Of a DNA stretch of 64,000 bases, positions 12,279-63,000 are shown piece after piece. A model generated the notes under the pieces. It had not been told where the DNA came from. It saw only the letters and a list, made by a program, of their open reading frames with translations, and searched no databases. Positions within the stretch are counted from its first letter, which is position 1, and every line of letters begins with the position of its first letter. Made by a program: the position numbers and the translations under genes. The stretch comes from Bacteroides fragilis (GTDB lineage: Bacteria; Pseudomonadota; Alphaproteobacteria; Rs-D84): positions 3,406 to 67,405 of the forward strand of contig CAVGNU010000002.1 in the NCBI GenBank assembly GCA_963630775.1. The letters are read 5' to 3'.

Positions 12279-12300
12279 ATCACGTAATTCGGGGGAATAC

Positions 12301-12759
12301 ATGCAAACAGAATCTGGACGTTCATTGATAGAGATTGTTGGGGTACTGGCTATCGCTGGCATTATGACCGCCGCCACATGGCAGGCGGCCAGCATGTTAC
12401 GTAACAACATGCGTCGCACAACTGCAAATCGGGTTCTGCAACAGATTGCCCGCGACACAAAATTATTATTACAAATGCGCGGGGATTATACTGGTGTATC
12501 GGTTGACTATTTGATAAAAGAAGGTGCATTACAGAATGATACCGCACCGATTGGTGGGGCGGCATGGTCTGTTACATCATCGGCGGACGGAATGTCTTTC
12601 TCTATCAATCTGGTTGAACTGACGCAATCGGAATGCGAATATTTTTCAACCGCCGCACCATCGTGGGCAACATCTATTATGGTAAATGGGTCAACATATG
12701 ACCCAGACACCAGATGTTTTTCATCATCAACAAATCAGGTTTCATTTATCGTTGAATAG
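12301..12759 (+). CDS. Small type IV pilin-like protein
   Basis: MQTESG|RSLIEIVGVLAIAGIM prepilin-type N-terminus with Glu at +5. C-terminal Cys pair (SECEYF...DTRCF). SD GGGGGAA upstream. This is the real gene inside track ORF 12037..12759. Confidence 0.7.
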   Translation: MQTESGRSLIEIVGVLAIAGIMTAATWQAASMLRNNMRRTTANRVLQQIARDTKLLLQMRGDYTGVSVDYLIKEGALQNDTAPIGGAAWSVTSSADGMSFSINLVELTQSECEYFSTAAPSWATSIMVNGSTYDPDTRCFSSSTNQVSFIVE

Positions 12760-14892: not shown

Positions 14893-14898
14893 AAAAAA

Positions 14899-14926
14899 GA
14901 CGCCGGCAAATGCCGGTGTTTTTTTA
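14899..14926 (+). terminator. Intrinsic terminator (member of the caccggNaaatgccggtg family)
   Basis: Hairpin ccggca-aa-tgccgg followed by T7. Confidence 0.75.
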
Positions 14927-14927
14927 T

Positions 14928-15004
14928 AAAGTTCAAAGTGCAAATAATGTGTGCGCCAAATGGCGCACTGCTTTATTCATTTGAACTTTGAACCCTGAAC
15001 TTTT
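14928..15004. repeat. Heptamer-periodic palindromic intergenic element, copy a
   Basis: AAAGTTC AAAGTGC AAATAAT - GTGCGCC aaat GGCGCAC - inverted arm (ttgaactttgaaccctgaacttt). Confidence 0.8.
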
Positions 15005-15056
15005 AACTCTGTTATTTTAAGATTGCACTTTGCTGGATTTCACGTATAATCGCGGT

Positions 15057-18625: not shown

Positions 18626-18655
18626 TAAAAAACGCGCCATTGGCGCGTTTTTTGT
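18626..18655. terminator. Bidirectional intrinsic terminator
   Basis: aacgcgcc-att-ggcgcgtt flanked by A- and T-runs. Confidence 0.75.
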
Positions 18656-20694: not shown

Positions 20695-22881
20695 TTATAA
20701 TGTTTTCGTTTCACCCGTCATTGGGTCATAGAACCGCGGTGCACCGGCATAGCCCAATGCCGCATGATGCGATGGGACTAAAAATTCAGGCAGCGGGCTG
20801 GACGCGCCCATTTTCATAAATCCAGACAGGCGCGGATCTTTCCATGCGGGTTGTTTGTCTGCCTCAATCGGGCGATGATACCACCCTTGGAATATCACCA
20901 GTTGTTTGTTATCCGCCAGACGCATGATATCCATTGGCGTGTACAGTAATTCTTCGCTGGTGGATTCTTTGCCATCTTTGTCGGTCTTGATTTTCATCTT
21001 GTAACCCATCATCTTAGAAAAGCGGTCGGCGGTGTCTGGGTCGTTTTGACGTAACACAACCTTGGCCGCGGTGGTGGAAATGATGGTGGCGGCGGCATCT
21101 GCGCCATATTTTTCCTGAATCTGGTGCAAGTCCTGACCGATAATCAGGTATGACACCTGTTGACCACGACCCAAATCCGGCCCTTGGATAACGGCGTCCA
21201 GTTTTTGCATCTTGGGCATTTCGTCCAGTACGAACAGCACCGGATACGGCCCCAGTTCACGCCCATCACGCATCTGCTTTGGCGCGTTGGACAGCAAGAA
21301 ATTTGTCATCAATTCAATAAAGATTGCCGTAATTGGATTCAATGCCTGCGCATCGACCATATTGATGGACAAATACACCGTCACAGGTTTAACCTTGCCG
21401 TCACGCGGGTCAACCAGACCACGCAAATCCGAAAAGTGAAAGTCCGAATGGCTGGTACGGTTACGAACCGCCGAATTACGGAATATCGACAATCCCGCCA
21501 GAATTGTGGACAGAATAGATCCACGTTCCTTGTCCGGCGTGTTTGCCAACTGGGTCAATTCCAAAACACTGCGGTGGGCGTATGAATAATGTCTGGCTTC
21601 GTCCACGGCGGCCATAAACAGGTCGTGCATGGGATCTGCCATCATAACCATTTGGTCACCACCACGACGGCGTTCTTCTAAATCCGCGGCCATTGCGATT
21701 TGTGATGCGTTCAGCCAATCCAGAATCATGGAAAATGATGCCTCGCGTCCAATCCATGCGGGGGGAATGTTTTCCCACGTGCCGACGTGTACATAATTCA
21801 TTGCATTTAATTCGCCACGCTGTAATGCCGCCTGTGCCGCATATGCGTTTGTATCATTCATCATCGACAGGTAATAATCCGACAGCACCGCCGCATCATC
21901 GGCATCAAATGTACCCGATGTCAGGCGTGCATAGAAATAATCGTCGGCCTTGGCACGTTCAACCTTGGAAATAATAAAGTGCACCAGACCGGCCAGACCG
22001 GCGCGTCCGGTATTACTCCAATGCGGGTCTTGGGTGTTTTCTTGAATCAAAACCTTGCACATAGAATCAACGTACAGGTCGCGTTGTTCCATATTTGCCG
22101 GCACGTGATCCGGTGACAGCGGATTCCACGATGGATAATAAATGCCACGCGCGGGATCGTCCTGACCCGCCCAGTTCATAATGAACACCGGCCCAATCGT
22201 TGAACGATAACCAGACGATTTCTGGTACAATTCAGGTTTTGGGTCATTGATAATCATTGACACGTTGTTGCATTCAAAAATCGTTGGAAAAACCACCCCT
22301 TGGGTTTTACCAGTTCCGGGGGGCGCAACGCACAATGCAGACAGACATTCGTTCATCATCAATGGCTTTTTCTTGAAATAACCCAAAACCATCATGAACC
22401 CGCCCAGCAAGCCCATTTTCTCGATATCTTCCTTGGACGCTTTGTTTGATGATTTTTCGGCAAACTTATCCTTGCCATACGGGTTAAATTCATCAACCAA
22501 TGTGTTGTCCGCCATCAGGTAATACGCGATAATCGGCAACAGCGGCGTGATGCACATAATATCCGTGCGCATCAGCGACCGCGACACCCATGCGGGAATT
22601 TCCGCAATCACAGACATACCGCCACTGGTAAACATATTCATCAAATACACACGTGTCCACGTCAGTGACGCCGGTGACCAACCATACCGCCAGATATGTT
22701 CAATGATAAATGACAAACTGAATGCCGCCGCACAGACCAACCAAATACCAACCGCCCAGCGCAGTGACCAAAAAATCTGCGCCATGGGGGTACGTTGGTG
22801 TTCCTTGTACGCGCTGGACTTGAATATATTCAGGCCCTTGGACGAACCACCAGCCGATAAAATCTTGAACTTAGCAACCAT
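20695..22881 (-). CDS. virD4: Type IV secretion coupling protein, VirD4/TraG family
   Basis: N-terminal TM helices, Walker A PPGTGKTQGVVFPT, VLFVLDEMPKM (Walker B region), IGQDLHQIQEKYG (the TraG/VirD4 signature). Confidence 0.85.
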   Translation of the reverse strand: MVAKFKILSAGGSSKGLNIFKSSAYKEHQRTPMAQIFWSLRWAVGIWLVCAAAFSLSFIIEHIWRYGWSPASLTWTRVYLMNMFTSGGMSVIAEIPAWVSRSLMRTDIMCITPLLPIIAYYLMADNTLVDEFNPYGKDKFAEKSSNKASKEDIEKMGLLGGFMMVLGYFKKKPLMMNECLSALCVAPPGTGKTQGVVFPTIFECNNVSMIINDPKPELYQKSSGYRSTIGPVFIMNWAGQDDPARGIYYPSWNPLSPDHVPANMEQRDLYVDSMCKVLIQENTQDPHWSNTGRAGLAGLVHFIISKVERAKADDYFYARLTSGTFDADDAAVLSDYYLSMMNDTNAYAAQAALQRGELNAMNYVHVGTWENIPPAWIGREASFSMILDWLNASQIAMAADLEERRRGGDQMVMMADPMHDLFMAAVDEARHYSYAHRSVLELTQLANTPDKERGSILSTILAGLSIFRNSAVRNRTSHSDFHFSDLRGLVDPRDGKVKPVTVYLSINMVDAQALNPITAIFIELMTNFLLSNAPKQMRDGRELGPYPVLFVLDEMPKMQKLDAVIQGPDLGRGQQVSYLIIGQDLHQIQEKYGADAAATIISTTAAKVVLRQNDPDTADRFSKMMGYKMKIKTDKDGKESTSEELLYTPMDIMRLADNKQLVIFQGWYHRPIEADKQPAWKDPRLSGFMKMGASSPLPEFLVPSHHAALGYAGAPRFYDPMTGETKTL

Positions 22882-25327: not shown

Positions 25328-25352
25328 AAAACGGGGCAATGCCCCATTTTTT
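25326..25352 (+). terminator. Intrinsic terminator (aaaacggggcNNtgcccc family)
   Basis: ggggc-aat-gcccc followed by T6. Confidence 0.7.
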
Positions 25353-25354
25353 AT

Positions 25355-25408
25355 TAGAGCATAGATAATAGATAGTGCGCCGTTTGGCGCACTGATTTTT
25401 TTATCACT
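25355..25408. repeat. Heptamer-periodic intergenic element, copy b
   Basis: TAGAGCA TAGATAA TAGATAG - TGCGCC gttt GGCGCA - ctgatttttttatcact. Confidence 0.75.
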
Positions 25409-28086: not shown

Positions 28087-28821
28087 ATGATGCGTAAATC
28101 TGCAATAGTTTTGACCGGTATGATGGTGGTGTTGGGGGGATGCGCAAAGCATGACCCAATTTTACCAGGGACGCGCAATGCAATATTTGCAACCAGTGCG
28201 CCCGTTGCACTGAACCAGACCATCGCGGATTTGCCAGCGGTGGCAGTCACGGGTGACGCAGACGCAAATTGTCCATATACCCAAGACGCATCGAACGTAA
28301 TCAAAAATGGCGACCGCAAAATATTCAGCGGATTTCCAACACCAAATTCTGTGCGCAGTGATATGAAACCCATATGCAGCGGGAAATACGTTTATGCGGG
28401 TCTGACCACGGGCGAGGTTATCAAGGTTGACACCAAAACCCGTAACATTGCGTGGATTGCGGACGTCTTTCGCCCCAGCAATATGACCGGTGGCGCATCG
28501 GTTGTTGACATTGTCGCGCCAATTATGCTGCATAACGGCACGGTTTATGCCGGCGGGTTGGGCGATGCATTCTGTGCAATAAATGCGACATCAGGCGCCA
28601 AGAAATGGTGTGCATATATCGGTACGGCGCACCCATTTGTTATCACGGATACGGCGGCGTTTGTTGTTGGGACGGACGATAATCTGTATGCGGTTCGTAT
28701 GCGCGATGGTGCAATTTACTGGCGCGCCGCGGTGGACACGCAATCCGCACCGACATATGCCGATGGCACGATTATCGTTGGTCGGCAAAAATTTGACGCC
28801 GCCACAGGACAGACAAAATAA
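28087..28821 (+). CDS. PQQ-like beta-propeller lipoprotein, short BamB-like
   Basis: Lipobox VVLGGC. Repeated V/IYAG...G.L.A....G...W blades. Only 244 aa. Confidence 0.5.
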   Translation: MMRKSAIVLTGMMVVLGGCAKHDPILPGTRNAIFATSAPVALNQTIADLPAVAVTGDADANCPYTQDASNVIKNGDRKIFSGFPTPNSVRSDMKPICSGKYVYAGLTTGEVIKVDTKTRNIAWIADVFRPSNMTGGASVVDIVAPIMLHNGTVYAGGLGDAFCAINATSGAKKWCAYIGTAHPFVITDTAAFVVGTDDNLYAVRMRDGAIYWRAAVDTQSAPTYADGTIIVGRQKFDAATGQTK

Positions 28822-28862
28822 CAAATGCCCCCGTTTGGGGCATTTGTTATATACCAAACAGT

Positions 28863-28912
28863 AACCCTCCCCGTCGCACTTGCGTGCGACACCCCTCCTG
28901 ATGGAGGGGAAT
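28863..28912. repeat. CCCTCC-type double-hairpin element, copy 1
   Basis: aaCCCTCCCCGT-[gtcgcac ttgc gtgcgac]-ACACCCCTCC tgat GGAGGGGAAT. The same frame is seen at 40240-40293. Confidence 0.75.
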
Positions 28913-28913
28913 T

Positions 28914-28938
28914 AAAAACGGGGCGATGCCCCGTTTTT
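28914..28938. terminator. Intrinsic terminator downstream of infB
   Basis: acgggg-cgat-gccccgt with A5 and T5 flanks. Overlaps the infB stop. Confidence 0.7.
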
Positions 28939-39314: not shown

Positions 39315-39414
39315 TACAATCCCTTGCAGATTCATTCAAATGATAACTGATTACAACTGAAAAATAAAGATTAAATTTGCTTTCATAAAAAAACGAGGCA
39401 AATGCCCCGTTTTT

Positions 39415-40120: not shown

Positions 40121-40160
40121 AAGAGAGATAATAGAGCATAGATAATAGAGAATAGATGGG
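40121..40160. repeat. Heptamer array (TAGAGCA TAGATAA TAGAGAA TAGATGG), copy d
   Basis: Same heptamer words as copies b and g. Confidence 0.7.
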
Positions 40161-40239: not shown

Positions 40240-40293
40240 AACCCTCCCCGTGTTTATGCAAGGCATAAAAACACCCCTCCGATGGAGGGGAAT
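40240..40293. repeat. CCCTCC-type double-hairpin element, copy 2
   Basis: aaCCCTCCCCGT-[tttatgc aag gcataaa]-aACACCCCTCC gat GGAGGGGAAT. Confidence 0.75.
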
Positions 40294-40296
40294 AGA

Positions 40297-40313
40297 TGGT
40301 GGATGTTGAGGGA
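40297..40313. repeat. 17-bp direct repeat of the tRNA-Val 3' end (att-like scar)
   Basis: tggtggatgttgaggga is identical to 40469-40485. Confidence 0.8.
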
Positions 40314-40435
40314 TTCCCTCGGCATACGCCTGCGGGGCATTCGTTAGCGTTCAAACTGCGCGTTACTTGTTTTCACTTACTCATTGTCAAACCCCGGGGT
40401 TTTCGTCCCAAAATATACACACAAAAGATAAAACA

Positions 40436-40468: not shown

Positions 40469-40545
40469 TGGTGGATGTTGAGGGACTCAAACCCCCGACC
40501 CTCTCGGTGTAAACGAGATGCTCTAATCAACTGAGCTAAACATCC
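40469..40545 (-). tRNA. tRNA-Val (anticodon TAC), CCA encoded
   Basis: Cloverleaf read by hand: acceptor GGATGTT/AACATCC, D stem GCTC/GAGC, anticodon stem TCTCG/CGAGA with loop TTTACAC, T stem GGGGG/CCCTC, then A and CCA. Confidence 0.9.
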
Positions 40546-45769: not shown

Positions 45770-48298
45770 TTACCCGAACAACGTCAGTTGTGTTGTATCA
45801 TTCGGCTGCATCACACGCGATGGCTTTTTCGGCGCAGGCGTTGCAACCGGTGCGGGTGTGATATTTTCTGTTGTGGTGCGCGCCCCCTCCAACCCGGCCA
45901 AAACAGATTCTGCACGGGCGACAACCGATGCCGGCATGCCCGCCATTTTGGCGACGTGTATGCCATATGAACGGTTGGCAACACCCGCCACAATTTTATG
46001 CATAAATACAATGTCGTTATTATGTTCGCGTACATCAATGGTCAGGCACGACACATGATGCAAACGCCCCGCATCATCGCCAACCAATGCCGTCAATTCA
46101 TGATAGTGCGTGGCAAACAATGTGCGTGGTGACAATTCGTCCAGATATTCCAACACCGCCTGTGCAATCGCCATACCATCATACGTTGCCGTACCACGTC
46201 CGATTTCATCAAAAATGATAAATGATTTCTTGGTCGCGCGACGCAAGATGTTGGCGGTCTCGCTCATTTCCACCATGAATGTCGATTGTCCCGCGGCCAG
46301 ATTGTCTGATGCGCCAACACGGCTGAATAATTGGTCACAGATACCAATCGTCGCGCGCGATGCCGGCACAAACGACCCCAAATGCGCCAGCACAACAATC
46401 AATGCATTCTGGCGCAAGTATGTTGATTTACCCGCCATATTCGGGCCGGTCAGCAATGCAATCGGACGCACGTTCAAATTACAATCGTTTTTAACAAAAT
46501 TGTCGCCACGCCTGCGTAATACTGATTCAATCACGGGGTGACGCCCGCCCACGATGTCAAACGCGCCGTCATCGGTAATACTTGGTCGTACCCAACCATA
46601 ATCACGTGCCACCGTGGCCAGCGCATACCACACATCCAAATCCGCCAGTAAATCCGCCACAGACAGCAAATCATCAGATATCGCGCGGATGTCCGCAATC
46701 AGATTTGCAATAATATCATTTTCAATACCTGTCGCGCGCTCGGCTGCACTGCGCACATTATTGTCCAAATCAATCAGTTGCGCGGTGGTGAAACGCATAT
46801 TGCCCGCCAATGTCTGGCGATGTATAAATCCTGATTCTGGCATCATCAGCGCGTCGGCACGTGCCGATGGCACTTCGATAAAATACCCCAGAACATTATT
46901 GTATTTGATTTTCAGTGTGTGCACGCCGGTCTGGGTTGCATACTGTGATTGCAGGCCCGCGATTGTTTCCTTGGCCCCGTGGGCCAATGCGCGCATATTG
47001 TCCAGCGCAACATCAAATCCATCACGTATCACCCCACCATCACGGAAAAATGTCGGTAATTCATCGGCCAACGCATGCGACAACTTTATTGCCAAATCAT
47101 TATGCGTATTTATATTCGCAAATTGTGCCGCCAGACCAGCATCCAAACGCGGGCCCATCATTTTGAAATTCGGCAATTCAATCAAGAAATCCGCCACATG
47201 ACGCATATCGCGTGGCGTTCCGCGTCCCGACAACAGGCGCGTCAAACTGCGCCCGACATCCGGTACAGACGCCAATGACGCCGCAACGGTCGCCATAACG
47301 TCACTGTTCAAAATCATATGACCAATATGTTCCTGACGGTTGCGAATTTCCGTGGCGTCGCCCGACAATGTGCGCAAATAACCACGCAATTTACGCGCGC
47401 CAGCCGCGGTCTTGGTCACGTCCAGAACATCAATCAAACATGCGCCGCCATCTGATATCGGGGCATCTATTTCCAAACTGCGCCATGTGGCAGAATCAAT
47501 CAATAATTGCGCGCCTGATTTGAATACATACGGCGCACGAAATGTCGTTGTGGCGTCGCGCTGGGTATTAAACAAATACCCCGCCAGAATTTGAATCGCA
47601 GACATTGCGGGCGTTGCCGCCACATTGCCATCAATCGCACCCGAAAACACGCGCGATACAATCTGGTCAATGTCCGCACGGTGATACAATTTTTCGTACA
47701 CCGGTGTTGTCTTGAACACATCACGCAGGTGTTGAATTGTTTCTGTTTCCGCGTCGCGTTCGGGGTAAATAACCTCTGCCGGATTTATGCGAACCAAATC
47801 ATCCAATACGTCGGCGGTGCGACCAACAAAAAATTCACCCGTTGAAATATCACACCCCGCGATATCAAATGCATCGGCATTTGGCACAACCGCAACCAAG
47901 AAATTAGAATTTTTCGGCGTCAGCAAATTTTCATCTGTCAATGTCCCCGATGTCAGAACACGAATGATTTTGCGTTCTATGTATTTATGACCGCGCGCCT
48001 TGGCCTGGGCGGGGGTCTCCATTTGTTCAACCAGCGCAACCTTGAACCCTGCGCGAACCAAGCGGCCGAAATAATTGTCCGCCGCATGCCATGGAATCCC
48101 GCACATCGGAATGTCCGCGCCATCGCCGTCCGTGCCACGCGCCGTCAAAACCAGCCCCAAATTTTGGCTGATTATCTTTGCATCTTCGAAAAAAGATTCG
48201 TAAAAGTCCCCCAACCGAAACATCAACAGTGCATCTGGATTTTCAGATTTCATATCCATGTACTGTTGCATAACGGGGGTCAGTTTTGGTTTTTCCAT
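45770..48298 (-). CDS. mutS: DNA mismatch repair protein MutS
   Basis: TPVMQQY...GDFYE mismatch-binding N-terminus, Walker A GPNMAGKST, DEIGRGTATYDG. Confidence 0.97.
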   Translation of the reverse strand: MEKPKLTPVMQQYMDMKSENPDALLMFRLGDFYESFFEDAKIISQNLGLVLTARGTDGDGADIPMCGIPWHAADNYFGRLVRAGFKVALVEQMETPAQAKARGHKYIERKIIRVLTSGTLTDENLLTPKNSNFLVAVVPNADAFDIAGCDISTGEFFVGRTADVLDDLVRINPAEVIYPERDAETETIQHLRDVFKTTPVYEKLYHRADIDQIVSRVFSGAIDGNVAATPAMSAIQILAGYLFNTQRDATTTFRAPYVFKSGAQLLIDSATWRSLEIDAPISDGGACLIDVLDVTKTAAGARKLRGYLRTLSGDATEIRNRQEHIGHMILNSDVMATVAASLASVPDVGRSLTRLLSGRGTPRDMRHVADFLIELPNFKMMGPRLDAGLAAQFANINTHNDLAIKLSHALADELPTFFRDGGVIRDGFDVALDNMRALAHGAKETIAGLQSQYATQTGVHTLKIKYNNVLGYFIEVPSARADALMMPESGFIHRQTLAGNMRFTTAQLIDLDNNVRSAAERATGIENDIIANLIADIRAISDDLLSVADLLADLDVWYALATVARDYGWVRPSITDDGAFDIVGGRHPVIESVLRRRGDNFVKNDCNLNVRPIALLTGPNMAGKSTYLRQNALIVVLAHLGSFVPASRATIGICDQLFSRVGASDNLAAGQSTFMVEMSETANILRRATKKSFIIFDEIGRGTATYDGMAIAQAVLEYLDELSPRTLFATHYHELTALVGDDAGRLHHVSCLTIDVREHNNDIVFMHKIVAGVANRSYGIHVAKMAGMPASVVARAESVLAGLEGARTTTENITPAPVATPAPKKPSRVMQPNDTTQLTLFG

Positions 48299-48310
48299 CT
48301 TGCGACGCGC

Positions 48311-48511
48311 CTATGCTTGCGTTTCAACCTTTAACGTTTCGATTTTCAATTCTGCTTCTTTCAGTAACTGTTCGCAATACGCTTTTAACTTGATACCCTG
48401 TTCGTACGCCGCCACAGAATCCGCCAATGGCAATTCGCCAGATTCCATTTTCTTGACCAATTCGGTCAGTTGCTTGTACGCATCTTCAAACGATAATTTT
48501 TTGTCGTCCAT
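48311..48511 (-). CDS. xseB: Exodeoxyribonuclease VII small subunit
   Basis: 66 aa. SFEDAYKQLTELVKKMESGELPLADSVAAYEQGIKL. Confidence 0.9.
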   Translation of the reverse strand: MDDKKLSFEDAYKQLTELVKKMESGELPLADSVAAYEQGIKLKAYCEQLLKEAELKIETLKVETQA

Positions 48512-48601
48512 AATTGTACCTTTGTTTTATCGGTCTAAATGTACAAGATAAAATGCCGATTGTAAAGGGTCAGTTTTTATAAATCGCCCTGCTCTAAACA
48601 G

Positions 48602-48630
48602 TTGCAAATCGGAAAAGATTCTTTTATAAT
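48602..48630 (+). promoter_or_regulatory. Sigma70-like promoter
   Basis: TTGCAA-17 nt-TATAAT. Confidence 0.55.
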
Positions 48631-48636
48631 CGCACT

Positions 48637-48720
48637 GTCATGGCGTGTTGCCGTGATGGGGTCTGATAACCCGTTTTGTGCGTCGGAATAAGATCCAAGT
48701 GCGCGCGGGCGCATTTTTTA
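48637..48720 (+). ncRNA. Candidate small RNA or first leader module (about 85 nt)
   Basis: Begins just downstream of the promoter. Two short hairpins (catggc..gccgtg, ggg..ccc), then terminator tgcgc-gcgg-gcgca plus T6. Confidence 0.4.
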
Positions 48721-48738
48721 TTACGACGAAAAATATAA

Positions 48739-48842
48739 CTCCTGAACCAACTGGTCAGGAGGGTTGCGAATATACTGAATAAGCACACAATTCACAAAAT
48801 TGTTATCAGCCTCCTGACCACCAAATAACTTGGTGGTTTTTT
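48739..48842 (+). promoter_or_regulatory. Terminator/antiterminator-type attenuator upstream of the Cys-rich small protein gene
   Basis: ggtcaggagg (48753-62) can pair with upstream ctcctgaacc (48739-48) or with downstream cctcctgacc (48810-19). The downstream segment overlaps the terminator stem ccaccaa/ttggtgg plus T6 (48818-42). Confidence 0.45.
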
Positions 48843-48870
48843 CGTACGAAAAACAACAGGGGGTAAAACA

Positions 48871-49215
48871 ATGAAAGCAAAAATAATCACAAGTATCGCA
48901 CTGGCGATTATCGCCGTGCCAAATCTGGCGCGCTCCGTGTGCCTGAACATTGAAGAGTGTCTAAATACCGCACCCGCTGGATATTGTTGTTGCACCAACG
49001 GCCAGACGGATTCAAGCTACAGTTGCCCAGACGGATATACTTTATCTGGGACAACGTGTTCGCGCGCCGACACCACCAGCAGTGATGAAACAGGAACATA
49101 CGTCATATCGTACGACACATGCAACGCAACGGTATCACTAATAACTTGTACAACCACCGTTCTGCAGTCATCAATACGCTATGATCAGGACTGTATGTGC
49201 ATGGACGCGGGATAG
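48871..49215 (+). CDS. Small secreted cysteine-rich protein
   Basis: 114 aa. Signal peptide MKAKIITSIALAIIAVPNLA, 13 Cys including a CCC run, SD AGGGGG. Confidence 0.6.
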   Translation: MKAKIITSIALAIIAVPNLARSVCLNIEECLNTAPAGYCCCTNGQTDSSYSCPDGYTLSGTTCSRADTTSSDETGTYVISYDTCNATVSLITCTTTVLQSSIRYDQDCMCMDAG

Positions 49216-49258: not shown

Positions 49259-49287
49259 ACGCGCCGGCATTTGCCGGTGTTTTTTTA
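49259..49287 (+). terminator. Intrinsic terminator (ccggcatttgccgg family)
   Basis: gccggca-tt-tgccggtg followed by T7. Confidence 0.7.
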
Positions 49288-49288
49288 T

Positions 49289-49403
49289 AAAGTACAGAGG
49301 TCATCTGTCTACGCTAACGCAGTGAAGCAATCCAGTAAATTAAACTTGTCCGCCAATGGCGGACACACATTATTTGCACTTTGAACTTTGGTATTTGAAC
49401 TCT
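49289..49403. repeat. Heptamer-periodic intergenic element, copy e
   Basis: AAAGTAC AGAGGTC ATCTGTC ... GTCCGCC aat GGCGGAC ... tatttgcactttgaactttggtatttgaactct. The right arm is the reverse complement of the left arm of copy a. Confidence 0.75.
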
Positions 49404-49428
49404 AAAAAATGCCCCACACGGGGCATGG
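49404..49428 (-). terminator. Hairpin terminator downstream of parB
   Basis: aaaaaatgcccc-acac-ggggcat. Confidence 0.65.
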
Positions 49429-52210: not shown

Positions 52211-52770
52211 TACCGGCATTTTTTGATAATTATAATATGCCCATCGCCGGTGCGTGATTTTACCAATTCATAATCAAATTTATATTTGGTTTGTGCGGTC
52301 GCAATTTCTGCCGATATTTCCCGGCCTTTTAGCAAAAAAAGCCGGCATTTTGTTTTGGCAACATAGTCAAAAATTTTAATCAGTGGCGCAAACGCACGTG
52401 CTGTGAACACAATATTGCCGGTATTTGCCGGCATTTTTTTAACAAAATCTTCGACACGACCATGGTAAATCGTCAAATTCTGTAAATCCAGACGTTCTTT
52501 GACCGCATTCAGAAACGCGACCTTTTTACCAATTGATTCAATACATGTCACGTGCCAGCCTAAAATTGCCAACACAATCCCAGGGAATCCAGCCCCACTG
52601 CCCAAATCGACAATTTGTGCGTCCGATGGCAAAACATCTGCCAGTTGCGCCGAATCGGCAAAATGACGATTTTCAATGTCAGACAGCGTACTGGGCGCAA
52701 CCAAATTCATTTTGGTTGACCATGTGCGTAACATATCTGCGTACTGTTCAAATTTGACTTTATTATTCAT
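52210..52770 (-). CDS. rsmG: 16S rRNA m7G527 methyltransferase
   Basis: VDLGSGAGFPGIVLAI SAM motif. Position next to parAB. Confidence 0.9.
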   Translation of the reverse strand: MNNKVKFEQYADMLRTWSTKMNLVAPSTLSDIENRHFADSAQLADVLPSDAQIVDLGSGAGFPGIVLAILGWHVTCIESIGKKVAFLNAVKERLDLQNLTIYHGRVEDFVKKMPANTGNIVFTARAFAPLIKIFDYVAKTKCRLFLLKGREISAEIATAQTKYKFDYELVKSRTGDGHIIIIKKCR

Positions 52771-54408: not shown

Positions 54409-55274
54409 AGGTAGGTATTATTGGCGCGGGCGCATGGGGCACCGCATTGGGTACGATTGTTGCACGTGGGGGTGCGGACGCGGTTCTGTGGTCTTATGAT
54501 GGTGCAAAAAAAGATTTTGATGGGGTTGTGTCACCAGCAAAACTGTCTGTTACAACAAATATGGCCGATATGGGCGAATGCGACGCGTGGCTGATTGTTA
54601 CACCAGCGGCGTTTTTCCGCGAAACCGTGCGCAATGCGGCACTGTACTATTGCGGCCAACCGGTTATTATTTGCACCAAGGGTGCCGAAGCCGCAACCGG
54701 TGAATTTATGTCTGAAATTATGGCAACAGAATTACCCGCGGCGCGTGATTTGGCGGTGCTGTCTGGGCCGCAATTCGCAGCAGAGGTTGCACGCGGCATT
54801 CCGACTGGTTCAACACTGGCCACACGTAGCATACTTGCATTGCAGACAGGCAGGGAAATATTCAACCAATTATATATCAGCCCCAGCGACGACATTATCG
54901 GCGCGGAAATATGTGGCGTCGGCAAGAACGCTGTTGCGCTGATTGCGGGCTATAATTCGGTGGCGGCAGCCGGCGAAAATGAACGCGCGATGATATTCAC
55001 CCGCGCCTGGGGCGAGGTTGCACAAATCGGCATTGCCTTGGGCGCAAAAGTCGAAACATTCTTGGATTTATGCGGAATAGGGGACTTGTTCCTGTCAGCG
55101 ACATCTGCCACCAGCCGTAATTTTGCGGGCGGTATGGCGATTGCCAAGGGCGAAACCGTTGTCGGTACTGTTGAAGGGATTTTTGCGCTGTCAGGTCTGA
55201 TTCGCCGCGCGGGCGCATTGGACGTAGAAACACCAACACTGTGCCAGATGCAGGAAAAACTGGGACTGAAATAA
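54405..55274 (+). CDS. gpsA: NAD(P)H-dependent glycerol-3-phosphate dehydrogenase
   Basis: MKVGIIGAGAWGTALG Rossmann motif, plus GPQFAAEVA and GKNAVALIAG. Confidence 0.85.
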   Translation: MKVGIIGAGAWGTALGTIVARGGADAVLWSYDGAKKDFDGVVSPAKLSVTTNMADMGECDAWLIVTPAAFFRETVRNAALYYCGQPVIICTKGAEAATGEFMSEIMATELPAARDLAVLSGPQFAAEVARGIPTGSTLATRSILALQTGREIFNQLYISPSDDIIGAEICGVGKNAVALIAGYNSVAAAGENERAMIFTRAWGEVAQIGIALGAKVETFLDLCGIGDLFLSATSATSRNFAGGMAIAKGETVVGTVEGIFALSGLIRRAGALDVETPTLCQMQEKLGLK

Positions 55275-55362
55275 AAGTACAAAGTTCAGAGTTCAAAGTT
55301 CAAATAACACGTGCGCCAACGGCGCACCCCAATTACTCTCTGCTCTCTGCTCATTACTCTGT
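55274..55362. repeat. Heptamer-periodic intergenic element, copy f
   Basis: AAAGTAC AAAGTTC AGAGTTC AAAGTTC AAATAAC - GTGCGCC aac GGCGCAC - ATTACTC TCTGCTC TCTGCTC ATTACTC. Confidence 0.85.
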
Positions 55363-55363
55363 A

Positions 55364-55397
55364 TAAAAAAACACCGGTAAATGCCGGTGTTTTTTAT
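55364..55397. terminator. Bidirectional intrinsic terminator (caccggtaaatgccggtg family)
   Basis: A7-caccgg-taaatg-ccggtg-T6. Confidence 0.8.
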
Positions 55398-56757: not shown

Positions 56758-57312
56758 ATTAAACCTGCATTTAACCGTGATAATCGTCGGGATATGGGCC
56801 CACGCATGAACAATCGTATATTTGCCAAAACGGTGCAAGTAATCAGCAATACCGGCCAAAATCTGGGCGTTATGCAGACATCGGTTGCATTACAGATGGC
56901 AATGGACGATGGGTTGGATTTGGTTGAAATCAACACCAATGGTGCTGTGCCTATCGTCAAAATTATGGACTATGGCAAATTCAAGTATGAACAGAAAAAA
57001 CGCGCGGCCGAGGCGAAAAAGAACCAGAAAACAATCGAAATGAAAGAGGTTTGGGTAAAACCGTTTATCGAAGAAAATGACCTGAATATCAAAATGAAAA
57101 AGGTCTTTGAATTTCTGGGGCAGGGCAACAAGGTCAAGATTGCCGTTATGACCCGTGGTTCAAAAAAGGTTTTGGCACGCGGCAAGGACGCCGTTCCAGA
57201 ATTGTTTGCGCATATTATGGAATTGGTTGGCGAACATGGCACACTGGAATCTAAATCCAAACCAGATGAACGAACCAAATCAATTATCATTGCACCCGCA
57301 ACAAAAAAATAA
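56758..57312 (+). CDS. infC: Translation initiation factor IF-3 (ATT start)
   Basis: IF-3 N- and C-terminal domains (IMDYGKFKYEQKK). AAGGAG at 56746-51 lies 6 nt before in-frame ATT 56758. The track ORF starts later, at ATG 56794. Confidence 0.9.
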   Translation: MKPAFNRDNRRDMGPRMNNRIFAKTVQVISNTGQNLGVMQTSVALQMAMDDGLDLVEINTNGAVPIVKIMDYGKFKYEQKKRAAEAKKNQKTIEMKEVWVKPFIEENDLNIKMKKVFEFLGQGNKVKIAVMTRGSKKVLARGKDAVPELFAHIMELVGEHGTLESKSKPDERTKSIIIAPATKK

Positions 57313-57337
57313 AAATGCCCCGTGTGGGGCATTTTTT
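57311..57337 (+). terminator. Intrinsic terminator after infC
   Basis: aaaaatgcccc-gtgt-ggggcatttttt. Confidence 0.8.
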
Positions 57338-57418
57338 AGAGAATAGATAATAGAGCATAGATAATAGATAGTGTACCGCTGGCACTTTATCACTGTATCA
57401 CTTTGTCACTCTATCACT
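57337..57418. repeat. Heptamer-periodic intergenic element, copy g
   Basis: TAGAGAA TAGATAA TAGAGCA TAGATAA TAGATAG - tgtaccgctggca - CACTTTAT CACTGTAT CACTTTGT CACTCTAT CACT. Confidence 0.85.
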
Positions 57419-57448
57419 AAAAAAAACACCGGCAAATGCCGGCGTTTT

Positions 57449-57450
<2 letters not shown>
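57419..57450 (-). terminator. Intrinsic terminator downstream of mreB (caccggcaaatgccgg family)
   Basis: A8-caccggc-aaa-tgccggcg-T6. Confidence 0.75.
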
Positions 57451-59717: not shown

Positions 59718-61088
59718 ATGTCACAAATAAAAAAAGTATTGATTGCCAACCGCGGTGAAATCGCACTGCGTATCATTCGCGCATGTCGCGACATGGGCAT
59801 TCGCACCGTTGCCGTTTATTCGACAGTTGATAAAAACGCGATGCATGTACAACTGGCGGACGAATCTGTGTGTATTGGTCCGGGCCCATCCAAGGATTCT
59901 TATCTGAACGAATCTGCAATTCTGACGGCGGCATTGCTGACCAATTCTGATGCAATTCACCCAGGGTACGGTTTTTTGTCCGAACGCGCGGATTTCGCAC
60001 AAAAGGTTATTCAGCATGGAATGATTTGGATTGGCCCATCACCAGAAATGATTACCAAGATGGGCGACAAGGTCAATGCCAAGCACACTGCGATTGAATG
60101 TGGTCTGCCGGTTGTGCCGGGGTCTGATGGTGCGGTTGACACAGTCGAAGATGCGTTAAAGTGGGCCGAAAAAATCGGTTACCCCGTTATGTTAAAGGCC
60201 GCGGCCGGTGGTGGTGGCCGTGGTATGCGCGCGGTACATAGTGCCGACGAAATGGCGGCCGCATTCCAGATTACCAAGAACGAAGCCCGCAGTGGTTTCG
60301 GCGACGACACATTGTATATGGAAAAATTATTGTTGCACCCACGTCATATTGAATTTCAGGTATTGGGCGACACGCATGGTAACGTTGTGATTTTTGGTGA
60401 ACGCGATTGTTCACTGCAACGCAAAAATCAAAAGGTTATGGAAGAATGTCCAGCGGCGGCATTGACCCAGAAACAGCGTGACGATATGATAGAGGTCTGC
60501 AAGACCGCTGCCAAAAAGATGGGGTATACCAACGCGGGTACATTTGAATTTATGTTCCAAGATGGCAAATTCTATTTCTTGGAAATGAATACCAGATTAC
60601 AGGTTGAACACCCTGTGACTGAAATGGTGTATGGCATTGATTTGGTGCGCGAACAGATTCGTGTTGCCGCCGGTGAAAAATTGGGTTATGCACAATCTAG
60701 TATTGCCCCACATGGTCATGCGATTGAATTTCGTATCAATGCCGAAGATCCAGAAACGTTTATTCCGAACCCTGGGAAAATCACATTGTATGCACCATCA
60801 GGTGGTCTGGGCGTACGCGTGGACAGCGCGGTCTATACCGGATACACCATACCGCCAACATACGATTCGATGATTGCAAAACTGATTGTTCATGCGCAAT
60901 CTCGCACGGCGTGCATTATGCGTGCCACACGTGCGTTAGACGAATTTGTTATCGAAGGTGTCAAGACGACAATCCCACTGCAACAGAAATTGTTAAAGAA
61001 CCGCGATGTTCAAACATTAAAGTTCGATAATCACTGGTTGGAAAATTACCTGAGTGGCGAACAAGAACAGAAAGAAAAACAAGAATAA
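59718..61088 (+). CDS. accC: Biotin carboxylase
   Basis: [17 protein letters not shown]-grasp [22 protein letters not shown]. Confidence 0.97.
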
Positions 61089-61111
61089 AAACGGGGCGTT
61101 GCCGCGTTTTT
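61087..61111 (+). terminator. Imperfect hairpin terminator after accC
   Basis: aaaacggggcg-ttg-ccgcgttttt. Confidence 0.55.
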
Positions 61112-61114
61112 ATT

Positions 61115-61164
61115 AAAGTTCAAAGTACAGAGTTCAAAGTTCATTCGTCTCCGCTTTGCTCTCT
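61115..61164. repeat. Heptamer-periodic intergenic element, copy h (no GC core)
   Basis: AAAGTTC AAAGTAC AGAGTTC AAAGTTC ATTCGTC TCCGCTT TGCTCTC. Confidence 0.8.
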
Positions 61165-61167
61165 AAA

Positions 61168-61193
61168 TAAAAATGCCCCGTTGGGGCATTTTT
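61168..61193 (-). terminator. Intrinsic terminator downstream of sspB
   Basis: aaaaatgcccc-gtt-ggggcattttt. Confidence 0.75.
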
Positions 61194-61656
61194 ATTTACG
61201 ATTCTTTCTGAAATCGTCCAGCGATACAACGCGACCTGGATCGGGGACGGTGTCTGGCCGTTCGTCCAATGGCAATTCCATATCATTATCCGCAGCGGCA
61301 ACGCCACCCTTTGGGTGAAAGGTTAAAATAAAATCAACCGACGGATCTTTGAATTCCACCAACGCGGAAAACGGCACACGAATAAAAAACGGACGACCAT
61401 CAAACGTCAGTTGCACACCAAATTCTTTGTCGGATACATGCAAATTATTATACGAATACTGTAATACAATCGTCATAATGTCTGGATACCGTATGCGCAG
61501 AAAATCCGGCAAAACAACGCCCACGGCGCGCGTTTTGAATGTGATAAAGAAATGAGTCCCATCACCCAGACCGTTCACCTGTGCATGAATCAACGCGTCT
61601 TTGACAACGGATTTCAGCGCGTTATCCAATAATGTTTGATAATCAATTTTTGCCAT
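61192..61656 (-). CDS. sspB: ClpXP adaptor SspB (alphaproteobacterial type)
   Basis: DYQTLLDNALKSVVKDAL...THFFITFKT...VLQYSYNNLHV...F.V.LTFDG is typical of the SspB-alpha family. Disordered acidic tail. Confidence 0.7.
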   Translation of the reverse strand: MAKIDYQTLLDNALKSVVKDALIHAQVNGLGDGTHFFITFKTRAVGVVLPDFLRIRYPDIMTIVLQYSYNNLHVSDKEFGVQLTFDGRPFFIRVPFSALVEFKDPSVDFILTFHPKGGVAAADNDMELPLDERPDTVPDPGRVVSLDDFRKNRK

Positions 61657-62750: not shown

Positions 62751-62779
62751 ATACTAGGACATATAGGGAAAAAGTTCAA
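62751..62779 (-). promoter_or_regulatory. Sigma70-like promoter of recF, with the -10 box 6 nt from the ATG (leaderless candidate)
   Basis: Minus strand: TTGAAC-17 nt-TAGTAT-6 nt-ATG(62744). The -35 lies inside the first AAAGTTC heptamer of repeat copy i. Confidence 0.5.
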
Positions 62780-62949
62780 ATGCAAATTATATATAGAGAG
62801 CAAAGAGCAGAGTGCAGAGAGCAAAGGAAAGTGAGTAAGTGATATAGTGATGAAGTGAAAAAGTTTATTTTTTGTCTATATTTGAAACGACATGAAAGAA
62901 ACAAGCGCGCCGACCGGTGCGCTTCATTGCTCTCTGCTCTTTGCTCTCT
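62771..62949. repeat. Heptamer-periodic intergenic element, copy i (largest)
   Basis: AAAGTTC ... AGAGAGC AAAGAGC AGAGTGC AGAGAGC AAAGGAA AGTGAGT AAGTGAT ... aagcgcgccgaccggtgcgctt ... CATTGCT CTCTGCT CTTTGCT CTCT. Confidence 0.85.
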
Positions 62950-63000
62950 AAAAATATCGTATGCGAACCGGCCGGTTCAATGACAACGATTTCCAAAAAT

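What the first reader, a model, noticed from the sequence alone, without database searches (positions are those of the whole stretch)
55274..55397. Family of heptanucleotide-periodic intergenic elements around a GTGCGCC-N3-4-GGCGCAC hairpin, sandwiched between stereotyped terminators (9 loci in 64 kb)
Most elements sit between gene 3' ends.

Loci:
- 14928-15004
- 25355-25408
- 40121-40160
- 49289-49403
- 55274-55362
- 57337-57418
- 61115-61164
- 62771-62949
- a weaker relative in the pnp leader

The shared architecture is a left arm of purine-rich 7-mers, a GC-rich core hairpin, and a right arm that is the pyrimidine-rich mirror of the left.
- Left-arm words come in a few dialects: AAAGTTC/AAAGTAC/AGAGTTC, AGAGAGC/AAAGAGC, TAGAGCA/TAGATAA.
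- Core hairpins: GTGCGCC aaat GGCGCAC, TGCGCC gttt GGCGCA, GTGCGCC aac GGCGCAC, GTCCGCC aat GGCGGAC.
- Right-arm examples: TCTGCTC TCTGCTC, ctttgaactttg.

The whole unit is usually bracketed by one or two near-identical rho-independent terminators of two recurrent types (aaaaacaccggYaaatgccggtgtttttt and aaaaatgccccNNNNggggcattttt).

The arms are only loosely complementary, so these are not simple REP hairpins. A 7-bp period also does not match the DNA helical repeat. I do not recognise this as a described repeat family. Possibilities include a MITE-like element, protein-binding arrays, or transcription insulators.
Basis: seen in the sequence. Interest (0 to 1): 0.7.

Follow-up and report, generated by a model that had tools for sequence, protein, structure and literature searches.

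The report
Heptad-armed mosaic intergenic repeat family
The finding is a real, apparently uncatalogued family of small non-coding repeats (a GC hairpin flanked by mirror-image arrays of 7-base words) that sit behind transcription terminators in an uncultured gut bacterium and are reshuffled quickly between close relatives, so they look like MITE/REP-type selfish DNA and not like a conserved regulatory device.

Summary
Eight of the nine listed loci are members of one repeat family, and the 'pnp leader' is not. All heptad doublets in the window fall inside these eight intergenic loci: 12 A-type doublets against 0.09 expected, and 4 exact core hairpins against 0.00 expected.

Relatives of the window organism (uncultured gut Pseudomonadota, probably Alphaproteobacteria) gave 37 further distinct copies of the core-plus-junction pattern. 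These define a 97-nt consensus element and 270-330-nt long forms with extra inner modules.

Copies at unrelated loci are nearly identical except for the hairpin loop. Orthologous loci differ by:
- presence or absence of the element
- orientation
- arm 'dialect'
- unit number, in 7- or 14-nt steps
- loop flips
- internal deletions

Element ends abut terminator T-tracts (42% against 1.4% of random positions). Convergent intergenic regions are preferred.

No Rfam, NCBIfam, plasmid or literature match was found, and one partial 31-nt arm match in a phage record. No transposase was seen.

Best reading: a lineage-specific, MITE/REP-BIME-like mosaic palindromic repeat whose arms behave as heptamer simple-sequence repeats and whose core resembles a bidirectional terminator. 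The mobilising mechanism is unknown.

Inverted arrays of AAAGTTC-type heptads also occur across many phyla. This links the finding to the known but unexplained excess of heptamer repeats in bacteria.

The parts
14928..15012 (.). E1, short canonical A-type element. A arm 14928-14941, junction AAATAATGT, core GTGCGCC-AAAT-GGCGCAC at 14951-14968, junction TGCTTTATTCATTT, inverse A arm 14983-15012. It lies between the ompH terminator (14895-14924) and the lpxD promoter.
25355..25406 (.). E2. C arm (TAGAGCA TAGATAA TAGATAG) plus core GTGCGCC-GTTT-GGCGCAC at 25375-25392 plus a T-run. The core is in the position of the only terminator for the minus-strand gene ending at 25407.
40121..40160 (.). E3, half element: C array only. 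It lies just upstream of the promoter region of the OmpA-like gene. An array at the same position occurs in the 77%-identity relative L128.
49289..49403 (.). E4, degraded long-form element. A-arm remnant, inner-module remnant (GAAGCAATCCAGTAAATTAAACTT), hairpin GTCCGCC-AAT-GGCGGAC at 49348-49364, inverse A arm 49365-49403. Flanked by terminators 49261-49287 and 49404-49428.
55274..55364 (.). E5, the flagged locus; a chimeric element. Four A units 55274-55301, core GTGCGCC-AAC-GGCGCAC at 55311-55327, inverse B arm 55328-55364. It sits between the gpsA stop codon and the shared terminator 55365-55396. The site is empty in relatives L126 and L127.
57337..57418 (.). E6, chimeric element. Five C units 57337-57371, degenerate core 57372-57386, inverse D arm (8-nt period) 57387-57418. 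It lies between terminators 57307-57337 and 57419-57450.
61115..61166 (.). E7, deletion derivative. Four A units 61115-61142, remnant ATTCGTCTCCG, inverse B remnant CTTTGCTCTCTAA, no core. It lies between terminators 61077-61111 and 61167-61198. Relatives carry 290-320-nt long forms at this site.
62790..62950 (.). E8, composite element. B arm 62790-62827, D arm 62828-62860, AT-rich spacer, hairpin CGCGCC-GACC-GGTGCG within 62906-62925, inverse B arm 62926-62950. Absent from L123 and L125; L126 has only a remnant.

Best explanation
These are copies of a lineage-specific family of small, non-coding, mosaic palindromic repeat elements, MITE-like or REP/BIME-like.

Structure. The basic unit is a 97-nt element: AAAGTTCAAATACCAAAGTTCAAAGTGCAAATAATGT-GTGCGCC-N3-4-GGCGCAC-TGCTTTATTCATTTGAACTTTGAACTCTGAACTTTGAACTTT. 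Its terminal inverted repeats are arrays of 7-nt words. Its centre is a GC hairpin with A-rich sequence upstream and T-rich sequence downstream on both strands, which is the layout of a bidirectional intrinsic terminator. Longer forms (270-330 nt) carry extra nested palindromic modules between two GC hairpins. Other arms (AGAGAGC, the TAGAGCA/TAGATAA 14-mer, the AGTGATA 8-mer) are interchangeable modules.

Shown:
- Copies have spread to many unrelated intergenic sites, mainly directly after terminator T-tracts and between convergent genes.
- Once in place they change fast. Arrays gain or lose 7- or 14-nt units. The loop flips to its reverse complement. Whole elements occur in either orientation at one site. 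Arms and inner modules are swapped between copies. Central parts are deleted at short microhomologies.

Inferred:
- Spread is by a trans-acting enzyme not seen here and/or by ectopic gene conversion. The latter would be helped by the near-identical palindromic terminators that flank many copies.
- Array length change is replication slippage.
- The position behind terminators reflects where insertions are tolerated.
- Any terminator or insulator effect is a by-product, not the reason the elements exist.
For: - Family and consensus. nhmmer hits to relatives. 37 distinct copies of the core-plus-junction pattern in metagenome contigs, 8 on one 935-kb contig and 7 on one 590-kb contig. An alignment of 13 copies, 12 of them from relatives and covering about ten different loci, shows that the non-periodic junction sequences are nearly invariant and the loop is the only hypervariable stretch.
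- Occupancy polymorphism. The gpsA-ompA site is empty in L126/L127. In other relatives it is filled by inserts that leave 94-254 nt between the flanks.
- Orientation. The same site holds the element in both orientations (L341/L346 against L376).
- Loop flip. GAAT against ATTC in orthologues L343 and L370, with the arms unchanged.
- Unit-number changes. 1 against 4 A units at the gpsA locus (L358 against window). 3 against 4 units in L372/L373. 2 against 5 C units (L126 against window). 14-nt steps in L130 against L132.
- Arm swaps at orthologous loci. Window against L123 at gpsA, and L341 against L342.
- Deletion at microhomology. E7 against the L123 long form at CGCT, and L126 against L359 at TGC.
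- Terminator association. 21/50 distinct element ends abut a hairpin plus T-run, against 30/2080 random positions.
- Gene context. Convergent 40%, tandem 17%, divergent 9% of intergenic regions occupied.
- Core. It scores as a terminator-like site on both strands.
- Lineage restriction. The 77%-identity relative L128 has the stereotyped terminators but almost none of these elements.
Against: - No transposase or RAYT-like gene, and no pair of arms flanking an ORF, was found in about 530 kb of this clade or in the window.
- No consistent target-site duplication. The one clean 'empty' site is equally explained by deletion between ATAAAA repeats.
- Two other 'empty' sites keep remnants and are deletions (L130; L126 against L359).
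- Near-identity of copies could reflect concerted evolution and not recent transposition.
- The invariant hairpin stem and one positionally conserved array (40121, shared with L128) hint at some constraint.
Confidence: 0.6

Rival explanations
1. Host-serving bidirectional terminator or insulator modules. The GC hairpin with A-rich and T-rich heptad arms acts as a fail-safe terminator between convergent or tandem genes, and it is kept because it blocks read-through and polymerase collisions.
For: - The core hairpins meet a simple intrinsic-terminator consensus on both strands.
- At 25375-25392 the core is the only terminator-like site for the minus-strand gene, and it is conserved in L130 and L132.
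- The A-rich-then-T-rich polarity fits terminator layout. Inverted AAAGTTC...GAACTTT pairs outnumber the reverse polarity 20 to 2 in other phyla.
- The elements are enriched at convergent gene ends.
Against: - Most copies lie between two strong canonical terminators, so they would rarely be transcribed.
- Content at orthologous sites is replaced, deleted or absent in close relatives. It is nearly absent in L128.
- Chimeric and core-less copies persist.
- The T-tracts are interrupted.
Confidence: 0.15
2. Arrays of binding sites for a protein that reads 7-nt units. On double-stranded DNA this could be a ribbon-helix-helix protein of the omega type or a nucleoid protein or gyrase, as proposed for E. 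coli BIMEs. On single strands or RNA it could be a cold-shock-type OB-fold protein, one per heptamer. The arrays would then organise DNA or RNA at gene ends.
For: - The word order is regular and in register, and the arms have a defined polarity relative to the centre.
- The T-rich arms contain CTTTG and CTCTTTG, close to the heptamer preference reported for CspB as summarised in PMC4679880.
- The TATCACT arm resembles the WATCACW heptads bound by the pSM19035 omega protein (from memory).
- Three heptads make 21 bp, which is two helical turns.
Against: - At least four unrelated word sets, with periods of 7, 14 and 8, are used interchangeably at the same sites. That would need several proteins or none.
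- Unit number is not conserved between orthologues.
- No candidate binding protein is linked to the elements.
- Nothing here was tested directly.
Confidence: 0.1
3. No mobility at all. Each locus grew its own heptamer arrays by slippage next to a pre-existing terminator-like hairpin. Similarity between loci is convergence plus gene conversion.
For: - Arrays do expand and contract in place.
- An excess of heptamer repeats attributed to polymerase slippage is reported for many bacteria (PMC4692102, PMC4679880).
- Permuted control heptamers also form arrays far above chance in viral contigs: 44 and 43 loci for 3 units, 6 and 4 for 5 units.
- A stand-alone terminator at 18630 has a stem (CGCGCC...GGCGCG) close to the core.
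Against: - The non-periodic parts (AAATACC, AAATAATGT, TGCTTTATTCATTT, and the 150-nt inner module) are nearly identical at about ten or more unrelated loci. Local slippage cannot produce that.
- The same site holds the element in both orientations.
Confidence: 0.07
4. REP/REPIN elements moved by a REP-associated tyrosine transposase (RAYT).
For: - Extragenic palindromes in many copies at gene 3' ends, in mosaic combinations, with hairpin-forming potential and no target duplication.
- In some other phyla the centre between the heptad arms is a GTAG-type palindrome (GGTGGGCA.TGCCCACCCTAC in L009; a related GTGGGCACTGCCCAC in L014).
Against: - The core here lacks the 5' GT[AG]G next to the stem. 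The observed sequences before GCGCC are GTGT, GCAGT, ATAGT and CACGT.
- There is a single central hairpin, not two inverted REPs at the ends.
- No RAYT gene was seen, although the whole genome could not be scanned.
Confidence: 0.05

Closest known systems
REP / BIME elements of enterobacteria (bacterial interspersed mosaic elements)
   Same: Extragenic palindromes at gene 3' ends and between convergent genes. They are combined with a small set of linker motifs into mosaics, are variable between strains, and are proposed to act as mRNA-end, terminator or gyrase sites (family properties from memory).
   Different: The arms here are tandem 7-nt word arrays. There is one short central hairpin (7-bp stem, 3-4-nt loop). 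There is no GTAG motif and no sequence similarity.
MITEs such as Neisseria Correia elements and Rickettsia palindromic elements (RPE)
   Same: About 100-300 nt, non-coding, with terminal inverted repeats. Many near-identical copies, occupancy polymorphism, either orientation. In other phyla the AAAGTTC-armed units even sit in frame inside genes, as RPEs do.
   Different: No target-site duplication could be defined. The terminal repeats are arrays whose length varies. No parent IS was found. Six-frame translations match no NCBIfam or Pfam model.
Heptamer tandem-repeat families: cyanobacterial STRR, GGGAATC in Xanthomonas, GGGGAYT in Nostoc, TAACTGA in Beggiatoaceae
   Same: Intergenic arrays of 2 to about 26 heptamers. 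Length varies between relatives. Some occur as inverted pairs between convergent genes. Function is unknown, and slippage has been proposed (PMC4692102, PMC4679880).
   Different: Here the arrays are the two arms of a defined dispersed element that has conserved non-repetitive junctions, a core hairpin and optional inner modules. Several word sets are exchanged at one site.
Foldback transposons of eukaryotes (Drosophila FB)
   Same: Long inverted terminal repeats that are themselves built from short tandem repeats, with a variable middle part (from memory).
   Different: Those are eukaryotic, much larger, and have different repeat units. No relationship is implied.
Heptad operator/centromere arrays bound by the omega protein of plasmid pSM19035
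   Same: Contiguous 7-bp units in direct and inverted orientation. The TATCACT arm resembles WATCACW (from memory).
   Different: Those arrays sit in plasmid promoters and parS sites and go with a known ribbon-helix-helix protein. Here the arrays are chromosomal, lie behind terminators, use several word sets, and that arm has an 8-nt period.

Membership tests
MITE (miniature inverted-repeat transposable element) | Small (under about 500 nt), non-coding, many similar copies at unrelated sites | tested here: met
   97-nt consensus and 270-330-nt long forms. 8 loci in the window and 37 distinct copies in relatives.
MITE (miniature inverted-repeat transposable element) | Terminal inverted repeats | tested here: met
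   AAAGTTCAAA...TTTGAACTTT at the ends of canonical copies. Chimeric copies have unlike arms.
MITE (miniature inverted-repeat transposable element) | Target-site duplication of fixed length | tested here: inconclusive
   No consistent duplication across 27 copies. At the gpsA site up to 6 nt (ATAAAA) could be either a duplication or deletion microhomology.
MITE (miniature inverted-repeat transposable element) | Presence/absence polymorphism at orthologous sites | tested here: met
   The gpsA-ompA site is empty in L126/L127 and filled elsewhere. The direction of the event (insertion or deletion) is not resolved.
MITE (miniature inverted-repeat transposable element) | A related autonomous element encoding a transposase with the same ends | tested here: not met
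   No arm pair flanks an ORF in about 530 kb of the clade, in 119 cross-phylum loci or in 120 viral loci. Whole genomes could not be scanned.
REP / REPIN (RAYT-mobilised) | Conserved GT[AG]G immediately 5' of an imperfect palindrome | tested here: not met
   The sequences before the stem are GTGT, GCAGT, ATAGT and CACGT.
REP / REPIN (RAYT-mobilised) | Single-copy RAYT gene in the genome, flanked by REPs | not testable with these tools
   No whole-genome access. None was seen in the window or the fetched loci.
Long simple-sequence repeats with 5-11-nt units (heptamer SSRs) | Head-to-tail iteration of one short unit, three or more copies | tested here: met
   A arm with 4 units, C arm with 5 units, B arm with 4 units.
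Long simple-sequence repeats with 5-11-nt units (heptamer SSRs) | Length polymorphism in whole units between close relatives | tested here: met
   1 against 4, 3 against 4 and 2 against 5 units, and 14-nt steps.
Rho-independent (intrinsic) terminator | GC-rich hairpin followed at once by a U-rich tract | tested here: inconclusive
   The cores pass a simple consensus scan on both strands, but the T-tracts are interrupted and no transcript data exist.
Rickettsia palindromic elements (RPE) | Similarity to the RPE domain models used by NCBI (their presence in NCBIfam is from memory) | tested here: not met
   Six-frame peptides of two long forms gave no NCBIfam or Pfam family at E of 0.01 or better.
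Any Rfam family | Covariance-model match | tested here: not met
   Only tRNAs at gathering score in the window and six related loci. Nothing on the elements at E of 1 or better.
Integron attC sites | RYYYAAC ... GTTRRRY core sites at the ends of an imperfect palindrome behind mobile cassettes | tested here: not met
   By eye, the ends read GTTCAAA (C where R is required). The neighbouring genes are syntenic housekeeping genes.

The most novel reading that the evidence does not exclude
Inverted arrays of AAAGTTC/AGAGTAC-type heptads that bracket a short lineage-specific segment are one cross-phylum class of bacterial foldback element (or one common mutational process). The class has a fixed polarity, can even insert in frame into genes, and is driven by a widespread, still unidentified enzyme or heptamer-footprint protein. 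This would also explain the long-noted excess of heptamer repeats in bacterial genomes.
Probability: 0.15. Interest if true: 0.8.

Novelty: new variant of a known kind. Interest (0 to 1): 0.5.

Why it matters
- It adds a well-defined, fast-evolving repeat family to an uncultured group of human-gut Alphaproteobacteria-like bacteria. The elements break assemblies, make intergenic regions hypervariable, and could serve as strain markers.
- It is unusually tractable. Here heptamer tandem repeats are part of a discrete, alignable element with many copies and many orthologous comparisons. Heptamer excess is a phenomenon noted since 2007 and never explained.
- That makes slippage, loop flipping, arm exchange and central deletion of palindromes countable in natural populations.
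- If the cross-phylum recurrence of the same heptads with the same polarity reflects a shared mechanism, it would point to an undescribed mobile-element class or a general rule of bacterial replication errors.

Tried and rejected
- Rfam at gathering and at permissive thresholds: nothing on the elements.
- Full-text searches for the heptad strings and for peptide translations of the inner module: nothing relevant. General heptamer-repeat searches found only the Xanthomonas/Nostoc and Beggiatoa papers.
- BLAST of the 97-nt consensus against plasmids and phages: no plasmid match and one partial array hit in a phage record.
- Search for an autonomous copy (arm pairs 0.5-3 kb apart around an ORF): none. 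Pfam on unannotated window ORFs: no transposase.
- RPE membership through six-frame peptides against NCBIfam and Pfam: no hit.
- The idea that the inner-module motif GTCATTGCGAG...GCAATC travels with heptad arrays across phyla: not enriched, 7 observed against about 6 expected. One viral contig is rich in it.
- The idea that a GC hairpin is always at the centre in other phyla: not so.
- Considered by eye and dropped for lack of motif agreement: dif/Xer sites, attC, IHF sites, boxA, HUH-origin iterons plus nick loop, tyrosine- or serine-recombinase core sites (a 3-4-nt variable spacer does not fit).
Full report
**1. Observation**

All listed sequences are present at the stated coordinates. They are far beyond chance.
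- The core pattern GTSCGCC-N3/4-GGCGSAC occurs 4 times, against 0.00 expected.
- ARAGTWC doublets with at most one mismatch occur 12 times, against 0.09 expected.
- Doublets of all four word sets occur only inside eight intergenic loci, apart from one 1-mismatch D-type match at 40373-40385, and never in coding sequence.
- Five of the ten convergent intergenic regions of the window carry an element.

Five corrections are needed.
- The 'pnp leader' relative is not a member.
- 62771-62789 is conserved flanking sequence, not part of the element.
- The exact core is present in four loci, degenerate in two and absent in two.
- The AGTGATA arm has an 8-nt period, and the TAGAGCA/TAGATAA arm is a 14-mer.
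- Same-dialect copies fold into long hairpins (DNA z-scores -5.4 to -6.2). Chimeric copies fold only at the core.

**2. Organism and relatives**

The window comes from an uncultured bacterium found in human gut metagenomes.
- Identical or 93%-identical GpsA proteins are on MAG contigs (GCA_963648225.1, GCA_002452175.1) and on Hadza gut assemblies.
- The nearest named homologues of another window protein are MAGs labelled Rickettsiales or Alphaproteobacteria bacterium.
- Synteny with relatives at 93%, 89%, 87-88% and 77% protein identity allowed comparison of orthologous intergenic regions.

**3. Anatomy of the family**

A scan of metagenome contigs with the arm-core junction pattern returned 40 loci with 37 distinct copies. 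Eight lie on one 935-kb contig and seven on one 590-kb contig.

The canonical short element is 97 nt: AAAGTTCAAATACCAAAGTTCAAAGTGCAAATAATGT-GTGCGCC-N3-4-GGCGCAC-TGCTTTATTCATTTGAACTTTGAACTCTGAACTTTGAACTTT.

In an alignment of 13 copies, 12 of them from relatives and covering about ten different loci, the arms and the non-periodic junctions are nearly invariant. The 3-4-nt loop is the only hypervariable stretch. Loops come in reverse-complement pairs: AAAT/ATTT, GAAT/ATTC, ATCT/AGAT, ATCC/GGAT, AAAC/GTTT.

Long forms (270-330 nt) insert several modules between the core and the right arm:
- a nested palindromic module, TTTATTTACTGGATTGC...CGCAATGACAG...CTGTCATTGCG...GCAATCCAGT
- a second GC hairpin, TTGCGCGCAGCGCAC
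- sometimes a module GTTCATCCGTCTCCGCTGAYGC

The other arm types (B AGAGAGC/AAAGAGC, C TAGAGCA-TAGATAA, D AGTGATAN) combine freely with A arms and with the same core.

**4. Position**

- Of 50 distinct A-arm ends, 21 directly abut a GC hairpin plus T-run. The figure for random positions in the same loci is 30 of 2080. The control includes coding DNA, so the contrast is overstated.
- Across the window and related loci, elements occupy 16/40 convergent, 15/87 tandem and 3/35 divergent intergenic regions. Many of these loci were fetched because they contain an element, so only the ratio between classes is informative.
- Other ends abut a stop codon (gpsA), a tRNA 3' end (L367, L378) or promoter-proximal DNA.
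- The terminators themselves are independent of the elements. The empty gpsA site keeps its terminator. The 77% relative L128 has the same terminator types but almost no heptad elements.

**5. Dynamics at orthologous loci**

- *gpsA-ompA.* The site is empty in L126/L127 (GAAATAAAAAACACCGG...). Elsewhere it carries a 1-unit A arm plus core plus inverse B arm (L358), 4 A units plus core plus inverse B arm (window), an A...A' 97-nt form (L123), or a long form (L375). All are at the same point between the stop codon and the terminator A-tract. The flanking ATAAAA could be a target duplication or the microhomology of a precise deletion.
- *infC-mreB.* The occupants are C(5)-degenerate core-D' in the window, C(2)-core-A' in L126, and a roughly 250-nt composite in L123.
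- *accC-sspB.* The left A arm is shared. The window copy equals the L123 long form minus an internal segment bounded by CGCT. L124 carries the inner module in the opposite orientation and resembles another L123 copy.
- *PQQ-infB.* The window has an unrelated repeat there. L132 has A-core-C', and L130 has a long form with two more C units.
- *ompH-lpxD.* The window has a short form and L132 a long variant. L130 has only a remnant, TTAACTTT.
- *Orientation.* One site holds the whole element in both orientations (L341/L346 against L376).
- *Loop.* Orthologues L343 and L370 differ by a loop flip only.

Together these show slippage in whole units, flip-flop of the loop, exchange between copies, and central or microhomology deletions.

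**6. Interpretation**

Near-identity of non-repetitive parts at many unrelated sites rules out independent local growth. It requires copying between sites. The features are those of a MITE/REP-BIME-type selfish or neutral repeat family whose arms also behave as simple-sequence repeats:
- terminal inverted repeats
- small size
- either orientation
- polymorphic occupancy
- restriction to one lineage
- accumulation in the least harmful places, behind terminators and between convergent genes

The mobilising agent is unknown. No transposase, RAYT or arm-flanked ORF was seen in about 530 kb of the clade or in the window (and the gene tables).

Ectopic gene conversion through the 25-30-nt, nearly identical and palindromic flanking terminators could move elements between terminator-flanked sites in either orientation. 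This is inference. It cannot explain the copies without terminators on both sides.

**7. Terminator-like core**

The core plus its junctions passes a simple intrinsic-terminator consensus on both strands. At 25375-25392 it is the only such site behind the minus-strand gene. A stand-alone terminator at 18630 has a very similar stem.

The family may therefore derive from a terminator and may still terminate weakly. Most copies, however, lie between two strong terminators and are poorly conserved in place. I therefore rate a host function as a minority explanation.

**8. Beyond this lineage**

They come from Acidobacteriota, Bacteroidota, Verrucomicrobiota, Planctomycetota, Cyanobacteria, Firmicutes, Patescibacteria, Chloroflexota and several proteobacterial groups.
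- Close inverted pairs are strongly polarised: 20 AAAGTTC...GAACTTT pairs within 300 nt, against 2 of the reverse polarity.
- In Clostridium hydrogenum the arms bracket a conserved segment of roughly 150 nt, forming a clear MITE-like family.
- The centre is lineage-specific and is not always a hairpin.
- Only 25% of arrays lie in long open frames, against 76% of random windows. Those that do are nearly always in the stop-free sense orientation. Some are whole array-hairpin-array units inside leuS-like or trpE-like genes.

*Viral contigs.* The same pattern is about 3-4-fold commoner than two permuted-heptamer controls.
- Five units: 17 loci against 6 and 4.

Heptamer arrays in general are therefore common, and AAAGTTC-type words are moderately favoured.

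*Literature.* This agrees with published reports of an unexplained excess of intergenic heptamer repeats. These include inverted pairs between convergent genes in Xanthomonas, and repeats attributed to polymerase slippage (PMC4692102, PMC4679880). I found no paper that describes AAAGTTC arrays or this element.

**9. Verdict**

It is best filed as a new variant of known kinds (MITE/REP-BIME-like mosaic palindromic repeats combined with heptamer simple-sequence repeats). It is not a new category.

Still unexplained:
- what copies the element
- why the units are 7 nt
- why the hairpin stem is invariant while the loop is scrambled
- whether the cross-phylum recurrence of the same heptads with the same polarity is convergence or a shared mechanism

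Noticed in passing
window 28866-28925 and 40245-40305: A second, unrelated intergenic repeat: ACCCTCCCCG-(short hairpin)-ACACCCCTCC-(T)GATGGAGGGGAAT. The first copy lies between the two terminators of the PQQ-like/infB convergent pair, exactly where relatives L130 and L132 carry heptad elements. The second copy is near the tRNA at 40472-40545.
   Followed up: partly
window 14895-14924, 49261-49287, 52410-52439, 55365-55396, 57419-57450; also 1121-1159, 25328-25351, 28812-28848, 28908-28938, 39383-39413, 57307-57337, 61077-61111, 61167-61198: Two stereotyped, nearly palindromic terminator types, AAAAACACCGGCAAATGCCGGTGTTTTTT and AAAA(A)TGCCCC/ACGGGGC-N3-4-...TTTTT, recur through the window. They are also present in the 77% relative L128, which lacks heptad elements. 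I did not examine whether they are an uptake-signal-like or otherwise homogenised family.
   Followed up: partly
L123 16863-17167, L124 16864-17200, L130 1587-1858, L353, L360, L367, L368, L371, L375, L378, L379; viral contig L207: The roughly 150-nt inner module of the long forms contains GGATTGCTTCGTTACACTCGCAATGACAG...CTGTCATTGCGAGCAAGCGCAGCGACGCGTGGCAATCC. The motif GTCATTGCGAG...GAAGCAATC occurs 8 times in an unrelated IMG/VR contig (L207), mostly just upstream of ORFs. This suggests a separate, widespread small palindromic element.
   Followed up: partly
L006 ~4700-4900, L063 ~5140-5200, L052 ~1728-1756: In other phyla, AAAGTTC arrays lie in frame inside leuS-like and trpE-like coding sequences, encoding KVQSSKF-type repeats. 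In L006 a whole array-hairpin-inverse-array unit is inserted this way.
   Followed up: partly
L001 3906-4000 (orthologue of window 55310-55390): In the MAG contig that carries the identical GpsA protein, a run of N covers exactly the core, right arm and terminator of the element. This is either a scaffold gap caused by the repeat or masking.
   Followed up: no
window 48258-49215: Two small ORFs (97 and 114 aa, no Pfam match) lie between xseB and parB. They are present in the window and in L123-L125 but absent in L126, so they are an indel of a small two-gene block next to element E4.
   Followed up: partly
window 20695-22881 and 12279-12685: A TraG/VirD4-type coupling protein gene sits among housekeeping genes. 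A stretch with a prepilin-like N-terminus (GRSLIEIVGVLAIAGIM) lies in what my crude gene call left as intergenic.
   Followed up: no
L366 (Ga0247611_10081279) 1270-2670: A contig from another metagenome carries several elements with the same core. One arm is AAAGTAC/AAATAAC and the other GAACTTT, and there are several arrays within 1.4 kb. It is a more repeat-dense relative.
   Followed up: no
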